Positions 2 through 5,826 of a stretch of DNA of 64,000 bases are shown here, in pieces. Position 1 is the stretch's first letter. Each line of letters begins with the position of its first letter. The notes below the pieces were generated by a model. The model was given only the letters and a program-made list of their open reading frames with translations. It did no database searches and was not told the origin of the DNA. This stretch comes from an uncultured virus (IMG/VR IMGVR_UViG_3300027608_000027) (taxonomy: Duplodnaviria; Heunggongvirae; Uroviricota; Caudoviricetes), in the IMG/VR virus record IMGVR_UViG_3300027608_000027, one strand, 5' to 3'. Both the position numbers and the translations under genes were made by a program.

Positions 2-508
2 AAATGTACAGCTTGTGAAACTGAAAATGACTACGACATTGACCTAAAAGGCATGCTAGATTATTTTAATAACTTAAAATTTATTAATACTGTGGTTATC
101 AACGATTCGTTAACTATTAAAATTCGTCCCTTGCAGTACGATGAAATGAGTTATTTTAGTATAGAAAATTTTAAATTACAAAAAACTCTGTATCAAACAG
201 TTGAAATGGCTGACGCAGAAAAACAAAAACAGCTTGATCAAATTTACAAAGACCTTAGCGAACTACAACTACAATTATTTTTAACTGCTGTTGAACAAGT
301 TCAAACACCTGACGGTAATGTAGATGACAAAGCGTTTATTGAAGACTGGTTACGTAACACTGATAGAGATTCGTATAACAGTATTAAACTTAAATTAGAA
401 CAAAACAAAGAAACATGGAGCATGCCTAAGCAGCAGATAAAATGTGCTGCCTGCGGTCATGAAGATCATGTTAACGTCACCCTGGATCAATCAAATTTTT
501 TCGTATAA
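2..508 (+). CDS. T4 gp26-like baseplate hub/tail assembly chaperone (5'-truncated by window edge)
   Basis: Frame is open from position 2 (KCTACETENDYDIDL...), upstream of the track's ATG at 53. Two CxxC motifs (CTAC, CAAC) and a C-terminal ...SNFFV, as typical of gp26-like proteins of T4-like phages. Confidence 0.65.
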   Translation, partial: KCTACETENDYDIDLKGMLDYFNNLKFINTVVINDSLTIKIRPLQYDEMSYFSIENFKLQKTLYQTVEMADAEKQKQLDQIYKDLSELQLQLFLTAVEQVQTPDGNVDDKAFIEDWLRNTDRDSYNSIKLKLEQNKETWSMPKQQIKCAACGHEDHVNVTLDQSNFFV

Positions 509-735
509 AGTTACTTCGTCTCTCAAACTCTGAGATTGAAGCCTATATTAACAGTCTTGAAAATGATGCTAAAGGCATCAAAGATGAAATTTTTAGACTA
601 AGTTGGTATATGCGAGGCGGAGTAACTAGCCAAGAATTGTTTCACATTTACTCTTATGAAGATAGAGTGTTAATTAATGACATTGTCAAAGACAACATTG
701 AAGCAACTAAAAAGTCTGGCTTAAATTTAATTTAA
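499..735 (+). CDS. gp51-like extension in the -1 frame, probably reached by programmed frameshift from the upstream ORF (or a 41-aa ORF from ATG 610)
   Basis: Frame open 475-735 (…RIKLLRLSNSEIEAYINSLENDAKGIKDEIFRLSWYMRGGVTSQELFHIYSYEDRVLINDIVKDNIEATKKSGLNLI*). No ATG/GTG/TTG before 610. Slippery A AAT TTT TTC at 493-502. Confidence 0.6.
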   Translation, partial: FRIKLLRLSNSEIEAYINSLENDAKGIKDEIFRLSWYMRGGVTSQELFHIYSYEDRVLINDIVKDNIEATKKSGLNLI

Positions 736-1878
736 CACTTCCGGCGGATAAGAAGCGCCAGGCTTCTTGGGAATAGCTGCTAGTGGATTAGGTTTGCCAG
801 CTTGTTTGGCTCTCCACAGTTCGTTTTTAATCTTTGGGCTTAGTAATACGTCTCTGCTGGTAGTTAGATAACCATCGTAATCAGTTACCAGCACATCATT
901 TACGTAGACTTTCTTAGCATTACGTGCTGAATCTTGAGCTGCTGCCGCATCTTTTTCTGCTTGAGTTGGTGTTAGTTTAGATTTAACAGCATCTGGCACT
1001 TTAATATCTAATCCTGTTTCTTTACTGACCCATTTAGCAGCTTGATCACCAAGCTCAACAAGTTTATCTATGGCAAATGCTGTAGCTTCTCCTAACTCTT
1101 TTGTTACATATCTACCTAAAGTAATTAATATACCATTGCTCCAATAGCGTAAGAATTCTATACCTTGGGGACTAGATATCCATGCTGTTAATGCTAGCCT
1201 AACACTGGTGGCCATAGTTGAATTGCTGCCACTTAGTTTAGTAATTACCCATCCTAGACCTTTTAAAGGATAACCAATAACTGGTCCTATTCCCGGTATT
1301 ATTTTTATTGCAGATCCTAACACACTGACAAATTTACCTGCAATACCCACAACTGCTAACATTTGAGCAGTTGCGTATCCTAATAGTTCTTCACGAGTTT
1401 CCAAAGCCTTTGCTCTAGCTTCTTCTACAGATTCCATGCTTGCAAACATGTTATCAGATGAAAGCTCTTTTCCTTTTTCGCTAGCTGCCTTAAATTCTTC
1501 AAAATCTTCTTCTACGGCAGCAATTTGAGTTAGGTAATTATAAACAATTACACCTACACCCAGTGTTTGGAGTACTGTGCTAGCACTTGCTATACCTTCT
1601 TTGGCTTTGGCGGCTGCAGTAGCACTTGCAGCAGCTCTCTTAGCAATCATGTCAATACGTTCTTGACCTTTTAATCCTTTAAGGTCATACTTGCTTTGAC
1701 CAAATATATTTTTTTCCTGCCTAGCTTTTCTAGCAGCTTGTGCTGCTTTTAGATCTTTACTTCGTTTATATCCTCTATATGCCTTTTGTACAGCATTAGC
1801 ACCTCTTGTTACTCCGGGAATAACTCCAAGGATTTCGTCAACTTGCTGTTCTTCGGATATAATCTCGTATATTTTCAT
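727..1878 (-). CDS. Hypothetical virion (internal head/ejection-like) protein with hydrophobic helices
   Basis: 383-aa ORF with TAAATA 7 nt upstream. N-terminus MKIYEIISEE resembles T4 capsid-targeting leaders. Ala-rich, with hydrophobic segments. Confidence 0.45.
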   Translation of the reverse strand: MKIYEIISEEQQVDEILGVIPGVTRGANAVQKAYRGYKRSKDLKAAQAARKARQEKNIFGQSKYDLKGLKGQERIDMIAKRAAASATAAAKAKEGIASASTVLQTLGVGVIVYNYLTQIAAVEEDFEEFKAASEKGKELSSDNMFASMESVEEARAKALETREELLGYATAQMLAVVGIAGKFVSVLGSAIKIIPGIGPVIGYPLKGLGWVITKLSGSNSTMATSVRLALTAWISSPQGIEFLRYWSNGILITLGRYVTKELGEATAFAIDKLVELGDQAAKWVSKETGLDIKVPDAVKSKLTPTQAEKDAAAAQDSARNAKKVYVNDVLVTDYDGYLTTSRDVLLSPKIKNELWRAKQAGKPNPLAAIPKKPGASYPPEVLN

Positions 1879-1894
1879 AGTATTGTATTTATTA

Positions 1895-2335
1895 ATGATG
1901 TACTGCGTACATCTGTTCTTCGCTTTGCAGCTCGAACTATTGTCTTTTATTTAATTATGATTAATGCGAAGCATTTAAATATTATCTAGATTGTTCAGTC
2001 ACACTTTGCCCTTGCGGGCAAAGAAATAAAATTCAACATTATCTGAGTTGCACATTTATCACTTAGCGTTACAGCATTACAGAGGCGGTCATCCGGTACC
2101 TCGAGCTGTGTCTTTATTATGACGGCGGCCTACTAACATACGCTAACATGCTAGCAAACGTGGGGCTTATTTCCCCTCTTTTTGCCTTTGATTTTCCTTT
2201 AAACAACCAAACCGCGGCAGCTTTGCGATCCTCGTCCTGTAAAGGATAGTGGTTGAGTACTCTTAACGGCGAGAGATTTCTGTCCCTGCGATCCGAGATC
2301 CAGGTGTAGAGCGCACGAAATTAGCCTGCGCCAGC
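1895..2335 (-). ncRNA. Candidate large structured non-coding RNA (family not recognised)
   Basis: No credible ORF and visibly GC-richer than the rest of the window. Multiple hairpins. On the minus strand there are two GCAA (GNRA) tetraloop hairpins (2004-2023, 1915-1937) and a 10-bp stem with three G-U pairs (2131-2156) that would be A-C mismatches on the plus strand. Confidence 0.6.
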
Positions 2336-2336
2336 G

Positions 2337-2774
2337 TTAACCGTTTAATTGTTTGCCTTTGATATGACTTCCGTGTACACGAACAGCAATATGTCCGTTG
2401 TAATAGTTGTCACTTTCGAGAACTTTGCGAGTGAATTGTTCTCTTGCCTCTATGTATGAGCATTCAGCCTTTGATGTGCAGTAGTAAAGTATTTCTCTTT
2501 TGAAATTTTCTGTGCCTAGAGTTTCTACGTCTTTTGTTAAGTGGTCGCTGGAGCCATAGTATTCACGCCAGTCTGAATCAATTTTAGATCGAATCTTCTT
2601 TTTCTTCTTCGTGCCGTTTTTGAGTTTTATTGTTTTGTAAGTTGTTTTAGAGAATTTTGCTAATTTCTTGCCTATATACATGCGACCAGTGATGTTATTA
2701 GTGATACAATAGACGAATCCGATACATTCTTCAGGAAGAGTTTCGACTATTGCGTTTTGATAATACCATGACAT
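2337..2774 (-). CDS. Stand-alone GIY-YIG (Seg/DenA-like) endonuclease
   Basis: GFVYCITN...MYIGKK, then SDWREYYGSS, FKREIL, catalytic E in YIEAREQ, and YYN. Lys-rich insertion KNGTKKKKKIRSK. Confidence 0.8.
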   Translation of the reverse strand: MSWYYQNAIVETLPEECIGFVYCITNNITGRMYIGKKLAKFSKTTYKTIKLKNGTKKKKKIRSKIDSDWREYYGSSDHLTKDVETLGTENFKREILYYCTSKAECSYIEAREQFTRKVLESDNYYNGHIAVRVHGSHIKGKQLNG

Positions 2775-2777
2775 CAA

Positions 2778-3041
2778 CTAGTTAGTGTCTGTGCCTTTAT
2801 CTGCCTGTTGTTTTTGAGCAAGCTGTTCTGCTCTATATTTTGGTGATTTAATTCTAGGTTTAAGTTTGCGAGTTTCTAATATATCCACTCTAAGTGCGCT
2901 GGCAATTCGTCTAATATCTGATAAATGTGCGCGAGTTCGCATACCACTGGCATGCGACTCAGTAGTTGCCCAATTTTGATAGTCCTCAAAGTAAGCTCTG
3001 AATTCTTTCATTAAACGATCGTGCAACTCTTCGTAATTCAT
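2778..3041 (-). CDS. Small basic protein, histone H1-like Hc1 family-like
   Basis: 87 aa; motif ASGMRTRAHLSDIRRIASALRVDI resembles the 'AGxRARxxLxEIxK...RxEI' motif of phage Hc1-like proteins. Confidence 0.4.
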   Translation of the reverse strand: MNYEELHDRLMKEFRAYFEDYQNWATTESHASGMRTRAHLSDIRRIASALRVDILETRKLKPRIKSPKYRAEQLAQKQQADKGTDTN

Positions 3042-4816
3042 TCTTCTATTTCTAAATCATTTGCATAGCTAGTAAAGCCGTTTTCTTTAACGACCTTAAG
3101 AACATTATTCACACGACCTATTAATTCATCTTTGTGACTGATCAAATAGATATTCTTATTACGCTCACGTGCCATTTTCTTTAGTACTGCCAGCGCATTT
3201 TCAACACCATTAGCATCTAAGCCGTTATCAATAAGCTCGTCAATGAATAACAAGTTAATGTTTTGATATAAACTTTCCCACACATCACGGAAACTCCAGC
3301 TTAACCCAAGTATTAAACGATTACGTTCACCACGTGACAAGTTATCAAAATCTAGATCCTGTCCCAACTGTGTGATTTCAACGTTTAAGTCGTTTAAGAA
3401 ACTTACTTGATGCGGCAACCCCATCTTATCGAGATAGTAGGTTAATCTATTGTTCAAGTAGGCAAGGTTTTGATCTATGATCTTCTTACGAATAAACGAA
3501 TCCTTATTTGTCAGTAACTTTAGCAAGAACTCTTGATGATCCTTTAGCAAAGTTAATGCGTTAATGTTATCCCATGATATTTCTTGAATAGCGGTATGAC
3601 GTAATTCATCAATCTGTTCTTGATAAGGATCTTTTTCTTGTTGTCTATTACCTAATGCAGTTTCTAAACTAGCAAGATTATTCTGATGCTTGAGTGCTTC
3701 TTCTAAGGTGTCATAGTAAGTTTGAGGCCTACCATTGATATCACCTATAGTTTCTAACTCTTGCATAACACTAGCATAGCTGTCGCTAACGCCCTGCAGA
3801 TAAATCATAGCATCTGCTAAATTCTTTTCTGCATTAGCAGTCATTTCTTCATGTTTATGACTGTGTAATCCTTGTTCACATGCAGGACACGTTTTGTTTT
3901 TTAACTGTTCTGATTCTTTAGTGTATTTGGTTACAGCCTTATCTGCTTGTATCACAGCAGTTTCAAGTGTTGATTTTTCTTTGTTAAGACTTTTAATCTT
4001 AGCACTTAGTTCATCATAACTTTTGAGTTTAGCATGTTGTTCTAATTCACGATCAATGTCTACACTTTGTAGTTCAGTGATACTTTGTGCAATTTTTGCA
4101 CAGTCTGTTTTTTGTTGAGAATACCAAGCTGACTGTCTAGTTTCTAAACCAGTAATACTTAACTGTATTTTTTCGTTAGATTTTTTAGCAGCCTCGATAT
4201 CAGCATTTTCTTGATAGATCGAATCTTTAGATATCCGTATCTGTTCTTTTAACAGATCAGCTTTCTCACTGAGTAAGGTAATACCTAGTAACTGTTCAAT
4301 AATTTCTCTCTGCTCATTGGCTTTTAAACTAAGGAACGGCTCTGTATAAGTGTTAAGAGCAACTATATGCCTAAACATATCGTGACTCATTTCTAATAAT
4401 TCACTAATATCTTTCTGCGTTTCTCGCATGTCACCTTGACTATCATCAGTTTCTTCTGTGACTAGCTCTTCGTCATTAACATAAAATTTCATCACAGTAG
4501 GCTTACGTCCCCGCTCAATTTTATATTTGTTGTTGTCTTTCTCAAAAGTAAGCGTAACCAACATGTTTTTATTATTAATCTTGTTAATTAAGTTATCTTT
4601 CTTGATATTAGTTAGGGCAGTACCGTATAGTGCAAAGCTAAGAGCATTTACAATGGTAGTTTTACCCGTGCCATTACGACTTCCACTATCATCTCCACCT
4701 TGATCTAAGTTTTCACCTAGCACCAAAGTTAAATGTTCACGAGTAAAATTTACAGCTTGGGTTTGATTACCCACGCTCATAAAGTTTTTCACGGTTAATT
4801 CTTTTAATTTTATCAT
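3038..4816 (-). CDS. Recombination endonuclease ATPase subunit (T4 gp46 / SbcC / Rad50-like)
   Basis: Walker A NGTGKTT, coiled coils with zinc hook CPAC, signature LSRGE, Walker B FIDE, and H-loop ISH. Confidence 0.95.
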   Translation of the reverse strand: MIKLKELTVKNFMSVGNQTQAVNFTREHLTLVLGENLDQGGDDSGSRNGTGKTTIVNALSFALYGTALTNIKKDNLINKINNKNMLVTLTFEKDNNKYKIERGRKPTVMKFYVNDEELVTEETDDSQGDMRETQKDISELLEMSHDMFRHIVALNTYTEPFLSLKANEQREIIEQLLGITLLSEKADLLKEQIRISKDSIYQENADIEAAKKSNEKIQLSITGLETRQSAWYSQQKTDCAKIAQSITELQSVDIDRELEQHAKLKSYDELSAKIKSLNKEKSTLETAVIQADKAVTKYTKESEQLKNKTCPACEQGLHSHKHEEMTANAEKNLADAMIYLQGVSDSYASVMQELETIGDINGRPQTYYDTLEEALKHQNNLASLETALGNRQQEKDPYQEQIDELRHTAIQEISWDNINALTLLKDHQEFLLKLLTNKDSFIRKKIIDQNLAYLNNRLTYYLDKMGLPHQVSFLNDLNVEITQLGQDLDFDNLSRGERNRLILGLSWSFRDVWESLYQNINLLFIDELIDNGLDANGVENALAVLKKMARERNKNIYLISHKDELIGRVNNVLKVVKENGFTSYANDLEIEE

Positions 4817-5826
4817 AGGCTATTATAAATGCTCAGTAACACTTTGGTATCAAATGTATCGGATTGAATGCTTACAAGTTGATTTGATACAATCTGATCA
4901 ACACTCTCAAACTTTTGAATGTCAATGTCAGTGTTAATTTCTACTTCTTTCTTTTCAGGAATCAGCGTCATTTCTCTAATTGAATAGTCTTGCATAAACT
5001 TTTCTTTGATAAAACTAGCTTCTTCATAACTAATATCAATATCTAAACTTACACGCAGATGTTGTTTAGGCAATATAATTGAATCAGCTTCATCGATTAG
5101 TTTGCTAAGTTTAATGGTGCGGAATGTAGGTTGATCCGGCCATGAGTAATATTCAGGTTGCTTATCCCATTCTAAAATCATCATACCACGATCATCGTCC
5201 CAGGTATCTGCATAGTTGTGGGGAAAAGCATTACCAATGTAAATCATATTGCCTTTTTGTTGGCGTTTATGAAAGTGCCCACTAAACCCTAACTCATAAC
5301 CTTTAAAACTATCTAATGCAATTTCTCCATGGTCAGGCATCTGCACCATTGCATTCATAAAGAAGCTAGGCAATTCAAAGTGACCAAAGATATACTTTCC
5401 ACCTTTCTTGCCTATTGACTTCCATTCGTCTCCGACAAGCCAAGGACATAGAGTAACGTTACCAATAGTAGTGGGCTCATGCACCACAGTGACTCCAGGA
5501 ATGTACTTTCCGAATTCAACTGAGTGGATGTCCCGCTTATCTTTGTAGTAAAGATCATGATTGCCAGGAAAGAAATAAAACTTATCGAACGCCTGTCCTA
5601 GTTTTTCAAGGGCTCTAAGACTATAATCCATTGTAGTAATATTAAGGCTATTACGGTTATGGTGCCAATCGCCCATAAAGATTCCGACGTCACATCCTTC
5701 CTCTTTGGCTTTAGCAATATACCAATCTACAAAGTCTTCGCAATCTTGATTATGCGTTGAACTATTAGATTTTAATCCAAAGTGTATGTCCGTGAAACAG
5801 GCTACTCGTTTAAAAAGGTTACTCAA
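4813..5826 (-). CDS. Recombination endonuclease nuclease subunit (T4 gp47 / SbcD / Mre11-like)
   Basis: Metallophosphoesterase motifs TDIHFG, GDWHH, GNHD, GHFH. TTG start preceded by GGAGA. Adjacent to gp46. Confidence 0.95.
   Translation of the reverse strand: MSNLFKRVACFTDIHFGLKSNSSTHNQDCEDFVDWYIAKAKEEGCDVGIFMGDWHHNRNSLNITTMDYSLRALEKLGQAFDKFYFFPGNHDLYYKDKRDIHSVEFGKYIPGVTVVHEPTTIGNVTLCPWLVGDEWKSIGKKGGKYIFGHFELPSFFMNAMVQMPDHGEIALDSFKGYELGFSGHFHKRQQKGNMIYIGNAFPHNYADTWDDDRGMMILEWDKQPEYYSWPDQPTFRTIKLSKLIDEADSIILPKQHLRVSLDIDISYEEASFIKEKFMQDYSIREMTLIPEKKEVEINTDIDIQKFESVDQIVSNQLVSIQSDTFDTKVLLSIYNSL

What the first reader, a model, noticed from the sequence alone, without database searches (positions are those of the whole stretch)
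1895..2774. ~450-nt structured non-coding RNA candidate directly downstream of a stand-alone GIY-YIG nuclease
Seen: this is the only long ORF-free stretch in a gene-dense window, and it is GC-richer than its surroundings. Read on the minus strand (same sense as the nuclease) it forms a chain of stems: GCGCA/UGCGC just after the stop; CCUG-GAUC-ucg-GAUC-g-CAGG; a multi-way junction closed by CAACCA/UGGUUG (2255-2204) containing UCCU-uuac-AGGA and GAUCGC/GCGGUU; GGGG/CCCC; a 10-bp stem with three G-U pairs (2156-2131); ACAGC..GAGG..CCUC..GCUGU; CUUUGCCC-GCAA-GGGCAAAG (2023-2004); GCU-GCAA-AGC; GAUGUAC-gca-GUACAUC. The G-U pairs and GNRA loops work only on the minus strand, which argues for an RNA rather than DNA cruciforms. 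I do not recognise it as tmRNA, RNase P, tRNA or a group I/II intron. Inference: an undescribed phage ncRNA, possibly forming an RNP with the nuclease, which has a Lys-rich insertion (by analogy to HEARO/OMEGA nuclease-RNA pairs), or an origin-associated RNA.
Basis: partly seen in the sequence, partly recalled or inferred. Interest (0 to 1): 0.85.

Follow-up and report, generated by a model that had tools for sequence, protein, structure and literature searches.

The report
Phage RNA with self-matching repeat pair
A giant freshwater phage carries a real, heavily folded RNA of about 370 bases, of which only the first third is catalogued; it does not depend on the nuclease gene beside it and most likely pairs back onto its own DNA to help start genome copying.

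Summary
The RNA is real and partly known. Its first 136 nt are Rfam Polynucleobacter-1 (113 bits, cut-off 37). The conserved element is longer, about 370 nt (2345-1981, minus strand), with three pseudoknots and strong covariation (0.415 against 0.168 shuffled).

The nuclease-RNP idea fails. The same RNA follows a PD-(D/E)XK nuclease, inserted genes or no nuclease, and cultured relatives put Holliday-junction resolvases in this slot.

They are identical in 314 of 318 unique elements although their sequence varies between elements, and no complementary partner lies on the same strand. The last hairpins (1975-1897) carry DNA-type GNA mini-hairpin loops on both strands.

Best reading (0.45, inferred): a ColE1-RNA-II-like preprimer, whose repeat 1 pairs with the template strand at repeat 2 and opens a replication origin. 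Skew tests were uninformative.

The scan found this element before on other DNA, once with the ColE1 analogy.

The parts
2337..2774 (-). 145-aa single-domain GIY-YIG nuclease gene (Pfam SegE_GIY-YIG, phrog_447); neighbour of the RNA, probably the branch/Holliday-junction-cutting enzyme of the gp47-gp46 operon
   Evidence: model matches the I-TevI catalytic domain, Z 8.6, rmsd 2.6, 82 aligned; slot synteny
1981..2345 (-). conserved structured RNA element, about 370 nt (true transcript ends unknown)
2201..2336 (-). 5' domain = Rfam Polynucleobacter-1 (RF01718); replaced by other folds in classes B, D and E
   Evidence: 113 bits
2265..2345 (-). pseudoknot 1: 2345-2341 (last codons of the nuclease gene) pairs with the loop 2269-2265; not in the Rfam model
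   Evidence: helix 1: 5 of 5 pairs changed on both sides, 78.9% paired
2063..2157 (-). 11-bp stem (2157-2147 with 2140-2130) whose loop 2146-2141 pairs with 2068-2063 (pseudoknot 2)
   Evidence: helices 9 and 10 (98.6% paired, 6 of 6 changed on both sides)
2071..2123 (-). near-invariant core (2100-2084) with pseudoknot 3 (2123-2119 with 2092-2088); weak whole-model likeness to Rfam cow-rumen-2 over 2056-2159
   Evidence: helix 11
2038..2048 (-). repeat 1: ACTC plus a 7-nt repeat (2044-2038); proposed RNA 'guide' loop
2004..2023 (-). hairpin between the repeats (8 bp, GCAA loop; GNYA loops as common as GNRA in relatives)
   Evidence: (helix 15)
1981..1991 (-). repeat 2: ATCT plus the identical 7-nt repeat (1987-1981); proposed DNA target (its template strand)
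1963..1975 (+). GAA-loop DNA mini-hairpin on the template strand
1934..1962 (.). A+T-rich spacer (possible unwinding element; inferred)
   Evidence: mean A+T 0.69-0.74 after repeat 2 in relatives
1897..1933 (-). two hairpins on the non-template strand (1933-1921 and 1913-1897, the latter with a GCA triloop); core of the conserved downstream module. The second also scores as a terminator-like site for plus-strand transcripts
1886..1892 (-). ATAAATA, T4-late-promoter-like (label recalled), before the variable 383-aa gene
2778..5826 (-). upstream context: 87-aa ORF, gp46-like and gp47-like genes

Best explanation
The element is a cis-acting, R-loop-forming RNA at a replication origin of a clade of uncultured giant T4-related phages, working like ColE1 RNA II. 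(1) Shown: a single-copy, multi-pseudoknot RNA fold at a fixed site after gp47-gp46 and a nuclease. (2) Shown: two 7-nt repeats that must stay identical, with no partner on the RNA strand. (3) Inferred: transcription runs through the element, the RNA folds and presents repeat 1, and repeat 1 pairs with the DNA template strand at repeat 2 just behind the polymerase, so the transcript forms a persistent hybrid. (4) Inferred: the hybrid is trimmed by RNase H (host, or phage-encoded in one lineage) to a primer, or simply displaces a strand. (5) Inferred: the A+T-rich spacer opens and the GNA mini-hairpins on both strands act as priming or loading signals. The nuclease gene is a neighbour, most likely the operon's branch-resolving enzyme, and not the RNA's protein partner.
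For: Repeats are identical in 314 of 318 unique elements, three differ at one base, and one (L425) carries a wholly different 11-nt repeat in the same two slots. There are 48 concerted parsimony changes at four positions on a 125-sequence tree and no discordant tip. No complementary covarying column appears, and the complement is not enriched on the same strand from -1000 to +500 (26 against 30.7 +/- 4.1 shuffled), which points to the opposite strand as partner. The one internal mismatch (L061, G in repeat 1, A in repeat 2) would be a G-T wobble in the proposed direction (n=1). DNA-type loops lie downstream on both strands; such mini-hairpins are reported at phage G4 and ssiA priming sites (PMC13037366, passages). 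The module is single-copy in 3 of 3 near-complete genomes and is shared by RNA classes whose 5' folds differ. RNase HI lies directly before the element in 9 of 28 PD-(D/E)XK loci. Precedent: rG stretch of ColE1 RNA pairing with the dC stretch of the template, and T4 R-loop origins (PMC4412123, PMC5043065, passages).
Against: There is no direct evidence of replication from the site: total and four-fold-site skews gave no significant origin signal anywhere in 3 genomes. No RNase H (PF00075) was found in 5 of 5 records searched, 3 of them near complete. In the RNase HI lineage itself the repeats are imperfect, and in class E they are shorter. Seven base pairs are few, and the repeat is A+T-rich, unlike the G-rich ColE1 tract. 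Transcript ends, strand and level are unknown (contigs only). No promoter-like site was found at the RNA's 5' end. The 1913-1897 hairpin may instead be a terminator for opposite-strand transcripts. Identity could also come from template jumping or from non-canonical pairing, which my tests do not separate.
Confidence: 0.45

Rival explanations
1. The repeats are take-off and landing sites for a polymerase that jumps between them (telomerase-like or DRT-like template translocation; these systems are recalled, not from a call), or they pair with each other non-canonically inside a free-standing ornate RNA that acts in trans.
For: A strict 7-nt identity with sharp borders around a 50-nt hairpin segment fits a template jump. 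The RNA is as ornate as free-standing large ncRNAs, and RNA-library contigs cover it.
Against: No reverse transcriptase (PF00078, E up to 0.1) in 5 of 5 records, 3 near complete, while controls rang in 4 of 14. The L061 mismatch disfavours a cDNA-of-repeat-1-onto-repeat-2 jump (n=1). It does not explain the DNA-type hairpin module that always follows.
Confidence: 0.2
2. The 3' module is a DNA site for recombination, concatemer resolution or packaging, cut by the neighbouring branch-specific nuclease (cruciform or single-strand hairpin, as Ssn nucleases do); the RNA only opens or marks it.
For: The slot holds EndoVII or RusA-like resolvases in cultured relatives. GIY-YIG and PD-(D/E)XK genes were not found together (0 of 3 near-complete GIY genomes; 0 of 5 partial PD-(D/E)XK records). 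Small GIY-YIG Ssn nucleases cut single-stranded DNA near hairpins (PMC11893778, passages).
Against: The repeats and hairpins stay the same when the nuclease changes fold, and the element occurs without a nuclease nearby (L099, L201). Protein reading does not explain 48 concerted changes.
Confidence: 0.15
3. The RNA is a cis-regulatory or stabilising 3' end of the gp47-gp46-nuclease transcript (or a leader of the next gene), and the repeats are protein-binding sites.
For: Fixed position at the operon's end; the 2010 paper marked the motif as possibly cis-regulatory (PMC2864571, table passage); pseudoknot 1 overlaps the stop-codon region.
Against: Both the upstream gene and the downstream gene vary, the next gene has its own late-promoter-like site, and repeat identity across many different sequences is hard to explain by protein binding.
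Confidence: 0.12
4. The RNA is the scaffold and guide of an RNA-guided GIY-YIG nuclease, as in OMEGA/HEARO systems.
For: Tight linkage: 72 of 77 RNA-anchored class A/B loci with 800 nt or more upstream hold the GIY-YIG gene, and 74 of 74 in class D. The nuclease has no separate DNA-binding domain and carries a long lysine-rich beta-hairpin.
Against: The nuclease is replaced by an unrelated fold with the RNA unchanged. The same nuclease clade goes with RNA classes of different 5' fold. Family members in cultured phages have 0-148 nt before the next gene. The element is single-copy at a fixed site, with no long variable guide.
Confidence: 0.08

Closest known systems
Polynucleobacter-1 RNA motif (Rfam RF01718; Weinberg et al. 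2010, PMC2864571)
   Same: The 5' 136 nt match the whole model at 113 bits; class A relatives match at 61-115 bits.
   Different: The model stops at about one third of the conserved element, lacks pseudoknot 1 and the whole 3' region, and does not match classes B, D or E. It was built from 16 sequences, with no function assigned (table row).
ColE1 RNA II preprimer with downstream strand-displacement signals
   Same: Long folded RNA; an RNA stretch with the same sequence as the downstream non-template DNA; priming-type hairpins beyond it; RNase HI adjacent in one lineage.
   Different: No sequence or Rfam likeness; no antisense regulator seen; the matching stretch is a variable A+T-rich 7-mer about 55 nt away, not a G-tract; it lies in a 350-kb phage genome; function untested.
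T4 origins oriF/oriG (promoter plus DNA unwinding element, R-loop primed)
   Same: T4-related phage; transcript followed by an A+T-rich stretch.
   Different: The passages read describe only a promoter and an unwinding element, no large folded RNA or repeat pair; no promoter-like site was found at this RNA's start.
cow-rumen-2 RNA (Rfam RF02947)
   Same: Whole-model alignment to the middle domain with the same order of motifs (19.6 bits, E 0.28); in 3 of 5 records its best match falls on or just after this element.
   Different: Far below the cut-off of 66 bits; homology is a lead, not shown.
OMEGA/HEARO nuclease-RNA pairs
   Same: Structured RNA directly beside a small nuclease gene.
   Different: Nuclease interchangeable, locus fixed and single-copy, no long variable guide.
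SegE_GIY-YIG family (Pfam PF19835, phrog_447) and I-TevI catalytic domain
   Same: 113 bits over the whole Pfam model; fold Z 8.6.
   Different: No C-terminal DNA-binding domain; it sits in the slot where relatives keep Holliday-junction resolvases.

Membership tests
Polynucleobacter-1 RNA (RF01718) | Score at or above the gathering cut-off over the full model | tested here: met
   113 bits against 37, model 1-141
Polynucleobacter-1 RNA (RF01718) | Model stems supported by compensatory change | tested here: met
   helices 2-7, 78-99.7% paired
cow-rumen-2 RNA (RF02947) | Score at or above the gathering cut-off (66 bits) | tested here: not met
   19.6 bits; 15-20 bits in related records
OMEGA/HEARO-type RNA-guided nuclease system | One cognate nuclease family obligately linked to the RNA | tested here: not met
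OMEGA/HEARO-type RNA-guided nuclease system | Mobile or multi-copy element with a long variable guide | tested here: not met
   one copy in each of 5 records; fixed site; alignment
OMEGA/HEARO-type RNA-guided nuclease system | RNP formation and RNA-directed cleavage | not testable with these tools
   needs pull-down and cleavage assays
ColE1-type RNA-primed origin | Homology to RNA II, with an RNA I antisense regulator | tested here: not met
   no such Rfam match at the gathering score or at E up to 10
ColE1-type RNA-primed origin | RNA stretch able to pair with the downstream template strand | tested here: met
   repeat identity in 314 of 318, no same-strand partner; the pairing itself is inferred
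ColE1-type RNA-primed origin | Single-strand priming or loading signals downstream | tested here: inconclusive
   DNA-type mini-hairpins on both strands; function untested
ColE1-type RNA-primed origin | RNase H processing | tested here: inconclusive
   RNase HI adjacent in 9 of 28 PD-(D/E)XK loci; none in 5 other records
ColE1-type RNA-primed origin | Replication starts at the site | tested here: inconclusive
   skews uninformative
Reverse-transcriptase-associated ncRNA (retron, DRT) | RT gene in the genome | tested here: not met
   0 of 5 records, 3 near complete, with PF00078; a very divergent RT could be missed
tRNA, tmRNA, RNase P, group I/II intron | Match to the family model | tested here: not met
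SegE_GIY-YIG (PF19835) | Score above the Pfam cut-off; GIY-YIG fold | tested here: met
   113.4 bits against 25; Z 8.6 to I-TevI
Holliday-junction resolvase (function of the nuclease) | Cuts four-way or branched DNA | not testable with these tools
   inferred from slot synteny only

The most novel reading that the evidence does not exclude
A large clade of freshwater and marine giant phages starts replication with a self-targeting RNA: a multi-pseudoknot scaffold presents a freely changeable 7-11-nt guide loop that invades the phage's own DNA at an identical downstream repeat, without a dedicated protein partner. Polynucleobacter-1, and possibly cow-rumen-2, would be fragments of this machine, and changing both repeats together would re-address it.
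Probability: 0.3. Interest if true: 0.85.

Novelty: new variant of a known kind. Interest (0 to 1): 0.62.

Why it matters
Polynucleobacter-1 has been an orphan motif since 2010. Here it is shown to be the 5' third of a much larger phage RNA with exchangeable 5' folds and a conserved 3' module. The repeat pair gives a cheap, decisive test: mutate one repeat, the other, then both. If the origin reading holds, it shows how an abundant, uncultured group of giant phages initiates replication and adds a natural short-guide RNA that invades DNA in cis. It also removes a false lead, since the GIY-YIG protein is unlikely to be a new RNA-guided nuclease and may be an unrecognised phage resolvase.

Tried and rejected
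Single-sequence folding: weak and not strand-specific.

Total GC/AT skew follows gene direction, and four-fold-site skew stayed below permutation limits in 3 of 3 genomes: no evidence either way.

BLASTN of the RNA against 50,697 GenBank phage records found nothing. My HMMs for classes A, B, D and the hairpin module did not hit the syntenic non-coding gaps of PA5oct, Phosso, GAP32, RaK2, Atu_ph07 or the Vibrio phage, so homology to cultured phages is not shown. The four PA5oct ncRNAs (PMC7318152, passages) lie elsewhere than 75.8-77.2 kb. Phosso's annotated RNase HI did not match the L266 RNase HI; it is an annotation only.

PF24608 search in GIY-bearing records rang nowhere, controls included; I rely on tblastn. 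The reverse test used partial records.

Four-fold-site identity was higher for the nuclease than for gp46 (0.54 against 0.40, 75 loci). This could mean recent exchange, but the loci were ranked by nuclease likeness, so I draw no conclusion.

Considered and not favoured: sigma-70 promoter pair (spacing does not fit); ribosome hopping (the repeat reads codon plus stop in classes A, B and D, but 7 nt must match rather than 3, and classes E and L425 differ); a rolling-circle origin (likeness to nick sites is recalled and untested; the loop resembling a single-strand-origin motif is explained by pseudoknot 2).

Sequence search of the PDB gave no hit; Foldseek gave none at E up to 0.001. Complex prediction was not used, as it cannot score RNA.

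Full report
Observation. The window is part of a T4-related giant phage; its gp46-like protein is closest to the PA5oct group among cultured phages (49%). The stretch 1879-2336 is the only one over 250 nt without an ATG-started ORF of 50 aa or more, and it is GC-richer than the window (0.43 against 0.356). Rfam finds one family in the whole window: Polynucleobacter-1 at 2201-2336, minus strand, 113 bits, full model. A search for that name returned one paper, Weinberg 2010. In it I saw the main-text table row, supplement table rows, the start of the alignment file and a figure page; I did not find a text description among the eight supplement files held. That the motif was noted near a cyanophage-like gene is recalled, not from a call.

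The full element. I fetched the best 80 of 584 viral loci encoding the nuclease. In 67 of 80 three conserved motifs mark a complete element of about 370 nt; of the other 13, seven are cut by the fetch, two have an inserted gene, three are another class (or copies of it), L061 has a variant core and L017 has a deletion. With HMMs built from these sets, 73 of 73 loci with 450 nt or more downstream hold it (circular, so this is a count and not a test). On 60 of the 91 least similar class A sequences, 81 named pairs were 89.5% paired and 59 had changes on both sides. The covariation score was 0.415, against 0.168 for shuffles and at most 0.095 for slid partners; the structure came from these sequences, so the slid control is lenient. 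The 5' fold is exchangeable: classes B, D and E do not match Rfam but share the 3' architecture or the downstream module. The middle domain aligns weakly over the whole cow-rumen-2 model. RNA-library contigs of 4 laid runs cover the element and the nuclease gene, one contig bridging 2254-2785. Contigs show neither ends, strand nor level, and DNA may be present.

The nuclease is a neighbour. It is a SegE-type GIY-YIG protein with the I-TevI catalytic fold and a long inserted beta-hairpin. Linkage is tight: 72 of 77 RNA-anchored loci with 800 nt or more upstream hold it (53 of 130 were too short), and so do 74 of 74 in class D. It is not obligate. Three of the five exceptions have a PD-(D/E)XK protein (PF24608; PHROG label RusA-like resolvase) in the same slot, and two have no nuclease in the DNA examined. 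Of 28 loci fetched with that protein, 15 carry the class A/B core. Genes of 250-360 aa are inserted between nuclease and RNA in six loci shown. Four cultured phages with the GIY-YIG family have 0-148 nt before the next gene. In cultured relatives the genes just after gp46 include EndoVII (GAP32, RaK2) or a RusA-like resolvase (PA5oct, Phosso), as annotated. The two nucleases were not found together (the second on partial records). I infer a branch-resolving enzyme; a mobile homing-type gene is not excluded.

The repeat pair. The element ends in ACTC plus 7 nt, a hairpin, and ATCT plus the same 7 nt. Among 318 unique elements (215 class A/B, 103 class D) the 7-mers are identical in 314, differ at one base in three, and L425 carries a different 11-nt repeat in the same slots. 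Caveats: one collection pattern required a purine-rich consensus in both copies (not identity), and in 30 cases the better of two candidate pairs was taken. On a class A tree built without the repeat columns, four positions changed 22, 4, 11 and 11 times, always in both copies. No column of the RNA is complementary to them, and their complement is not enriched on the same strand within -1000 to +500 nt. Against universality: the repeats are imperfect in the RNase HI lineage and shorter in class E.

The downstream module. After repeat 2 come an A+T-rich spacer and hairpins with C-GNA-G triloops on both strands: 121 sense and 87 antisense in 205 class A/B elements, and 53 and 47 in 96 class D elements, while the class A/B body has GNRA loops with other closing pairs. 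Such loops are very stable in DNA, RNA counterparts of the mini-hairpins are much less stable, and they occur at G4 and ssiA priming sites and the N4 promoter (PMC13037366, passages; PMC3201870, search listing only). The module is found once in each of 3 near-complete genomes and in every RNA class examined. One of them also scores as a plus-strand terminator.

Mechanism. Identity without a partner on the same strand points to pairing with the opposite strand. In ColE1 an rG stretch of the transcript pairs with a dC stretch of the template, the transcript forms a persistent hybrid, RNase H makes the primer, and the displaced strand takes the helicase; T4 origins also use R-loops (PMC4412123, PMC5043065, passages). 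I propose the same logic here: repeat 1 in the folded RNA captures the template at repeat 2 and the module beyond is opened and primed. RNase HI lies directly before the element in 9 of 28 PD-(D/E)XK loci, all one lineage, but in none of 5 other records. Skews gave no signal. All steps after the fold and the repeat identity are inferred; confidence 0.45. Rivals are template jumping or a trans-acting RNA (0.2; no RT in 5 records), a DNA site for the resolvase (0.15), a cis-regulator (0.12) and an RNA-guided nuclease (0.08).

Novelty. The 5' third is a known orphan family. I found no paper on the full element, the pseudoknots or the repeats in four searches: 'Polynucleobacter-1', 'cow-rumen-2' (PMC11701678, one passage), GIY-YIG with noncoding RNA, phage and structured RNA, and jumbo phage with large noncoding RNA, covariation and origin. 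The library lacks most subscription papers, and preprint supplements are closed. No cultured phage matched, although PA5oct, Phosso and GAP32 have long non-coding gaps at the same locus. This scan reported the element before on other genomes, once with the ColE1 analogy; I had written that reading before the look-up, and the notes are not support. Verdict: a real RNA, a new and larger variant of a known orphan family, with a strong testable clue to its mechanism; interest 0.62.

Noticed in passing
window 495-733 (+): The gp26-like ORF ends at 508 just after a TTTTTTC run and is followed by a second short frame; earlier scan notes read this as a -1 frameshift giving a gp26/gp51-like pair (run seen).
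   Followed up: no
L017 3438-3700: The element has an internal deletion that removes the core and repeat 1 but keeps repeat 2; a natural mutant or an assembly error.
   Followed up: no
L425 about 620-700: A class D element with a wholly different 11-nt repeat in both slots and altered flanks.
   Followed up: partly
L093, L352, L353, L357, L376: An additional homing-type endonuclease ORF lies next to the nuclease gene or between it and the RNA; label by motif only.
   Followed up: no
L266-L273, L275: RNase HI with a sigma-70-like promoter sits between the PD-(D/E)XK gene and a divergent RNA class with imperfect repeats.
   Followed up: partly
L513 4700-6180 (PA5oct), L508 5760-6773 (Phosso), L510 4398-5201 (GAP32): Long, poorly annotated or empty gaps beside the resolvase gene after gp46, with promoter-like sites and hairpins; candidate RNAs or origins in cultured phages, homology not shown.
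   Followed up: partly
L201-L210: All 10 hits among 185,579 prokaryote species genomes are in MAG contigs, several with phage genes, probably mis-binned phage DNA. The Polynucleobacter record in the 2010 alignment did not appear among them.
   Followed up: no
window 727-1878 (-): The 383-aa gene after the element has no Pfam or PHROG match and diverges quickly among close relatives.
   Followed up: no
window 2340-2774 (-): The family's PHROG and GenBank label 'NAD synthetase' is at odds with its GIY-YIG fold.
   Followed up: yes
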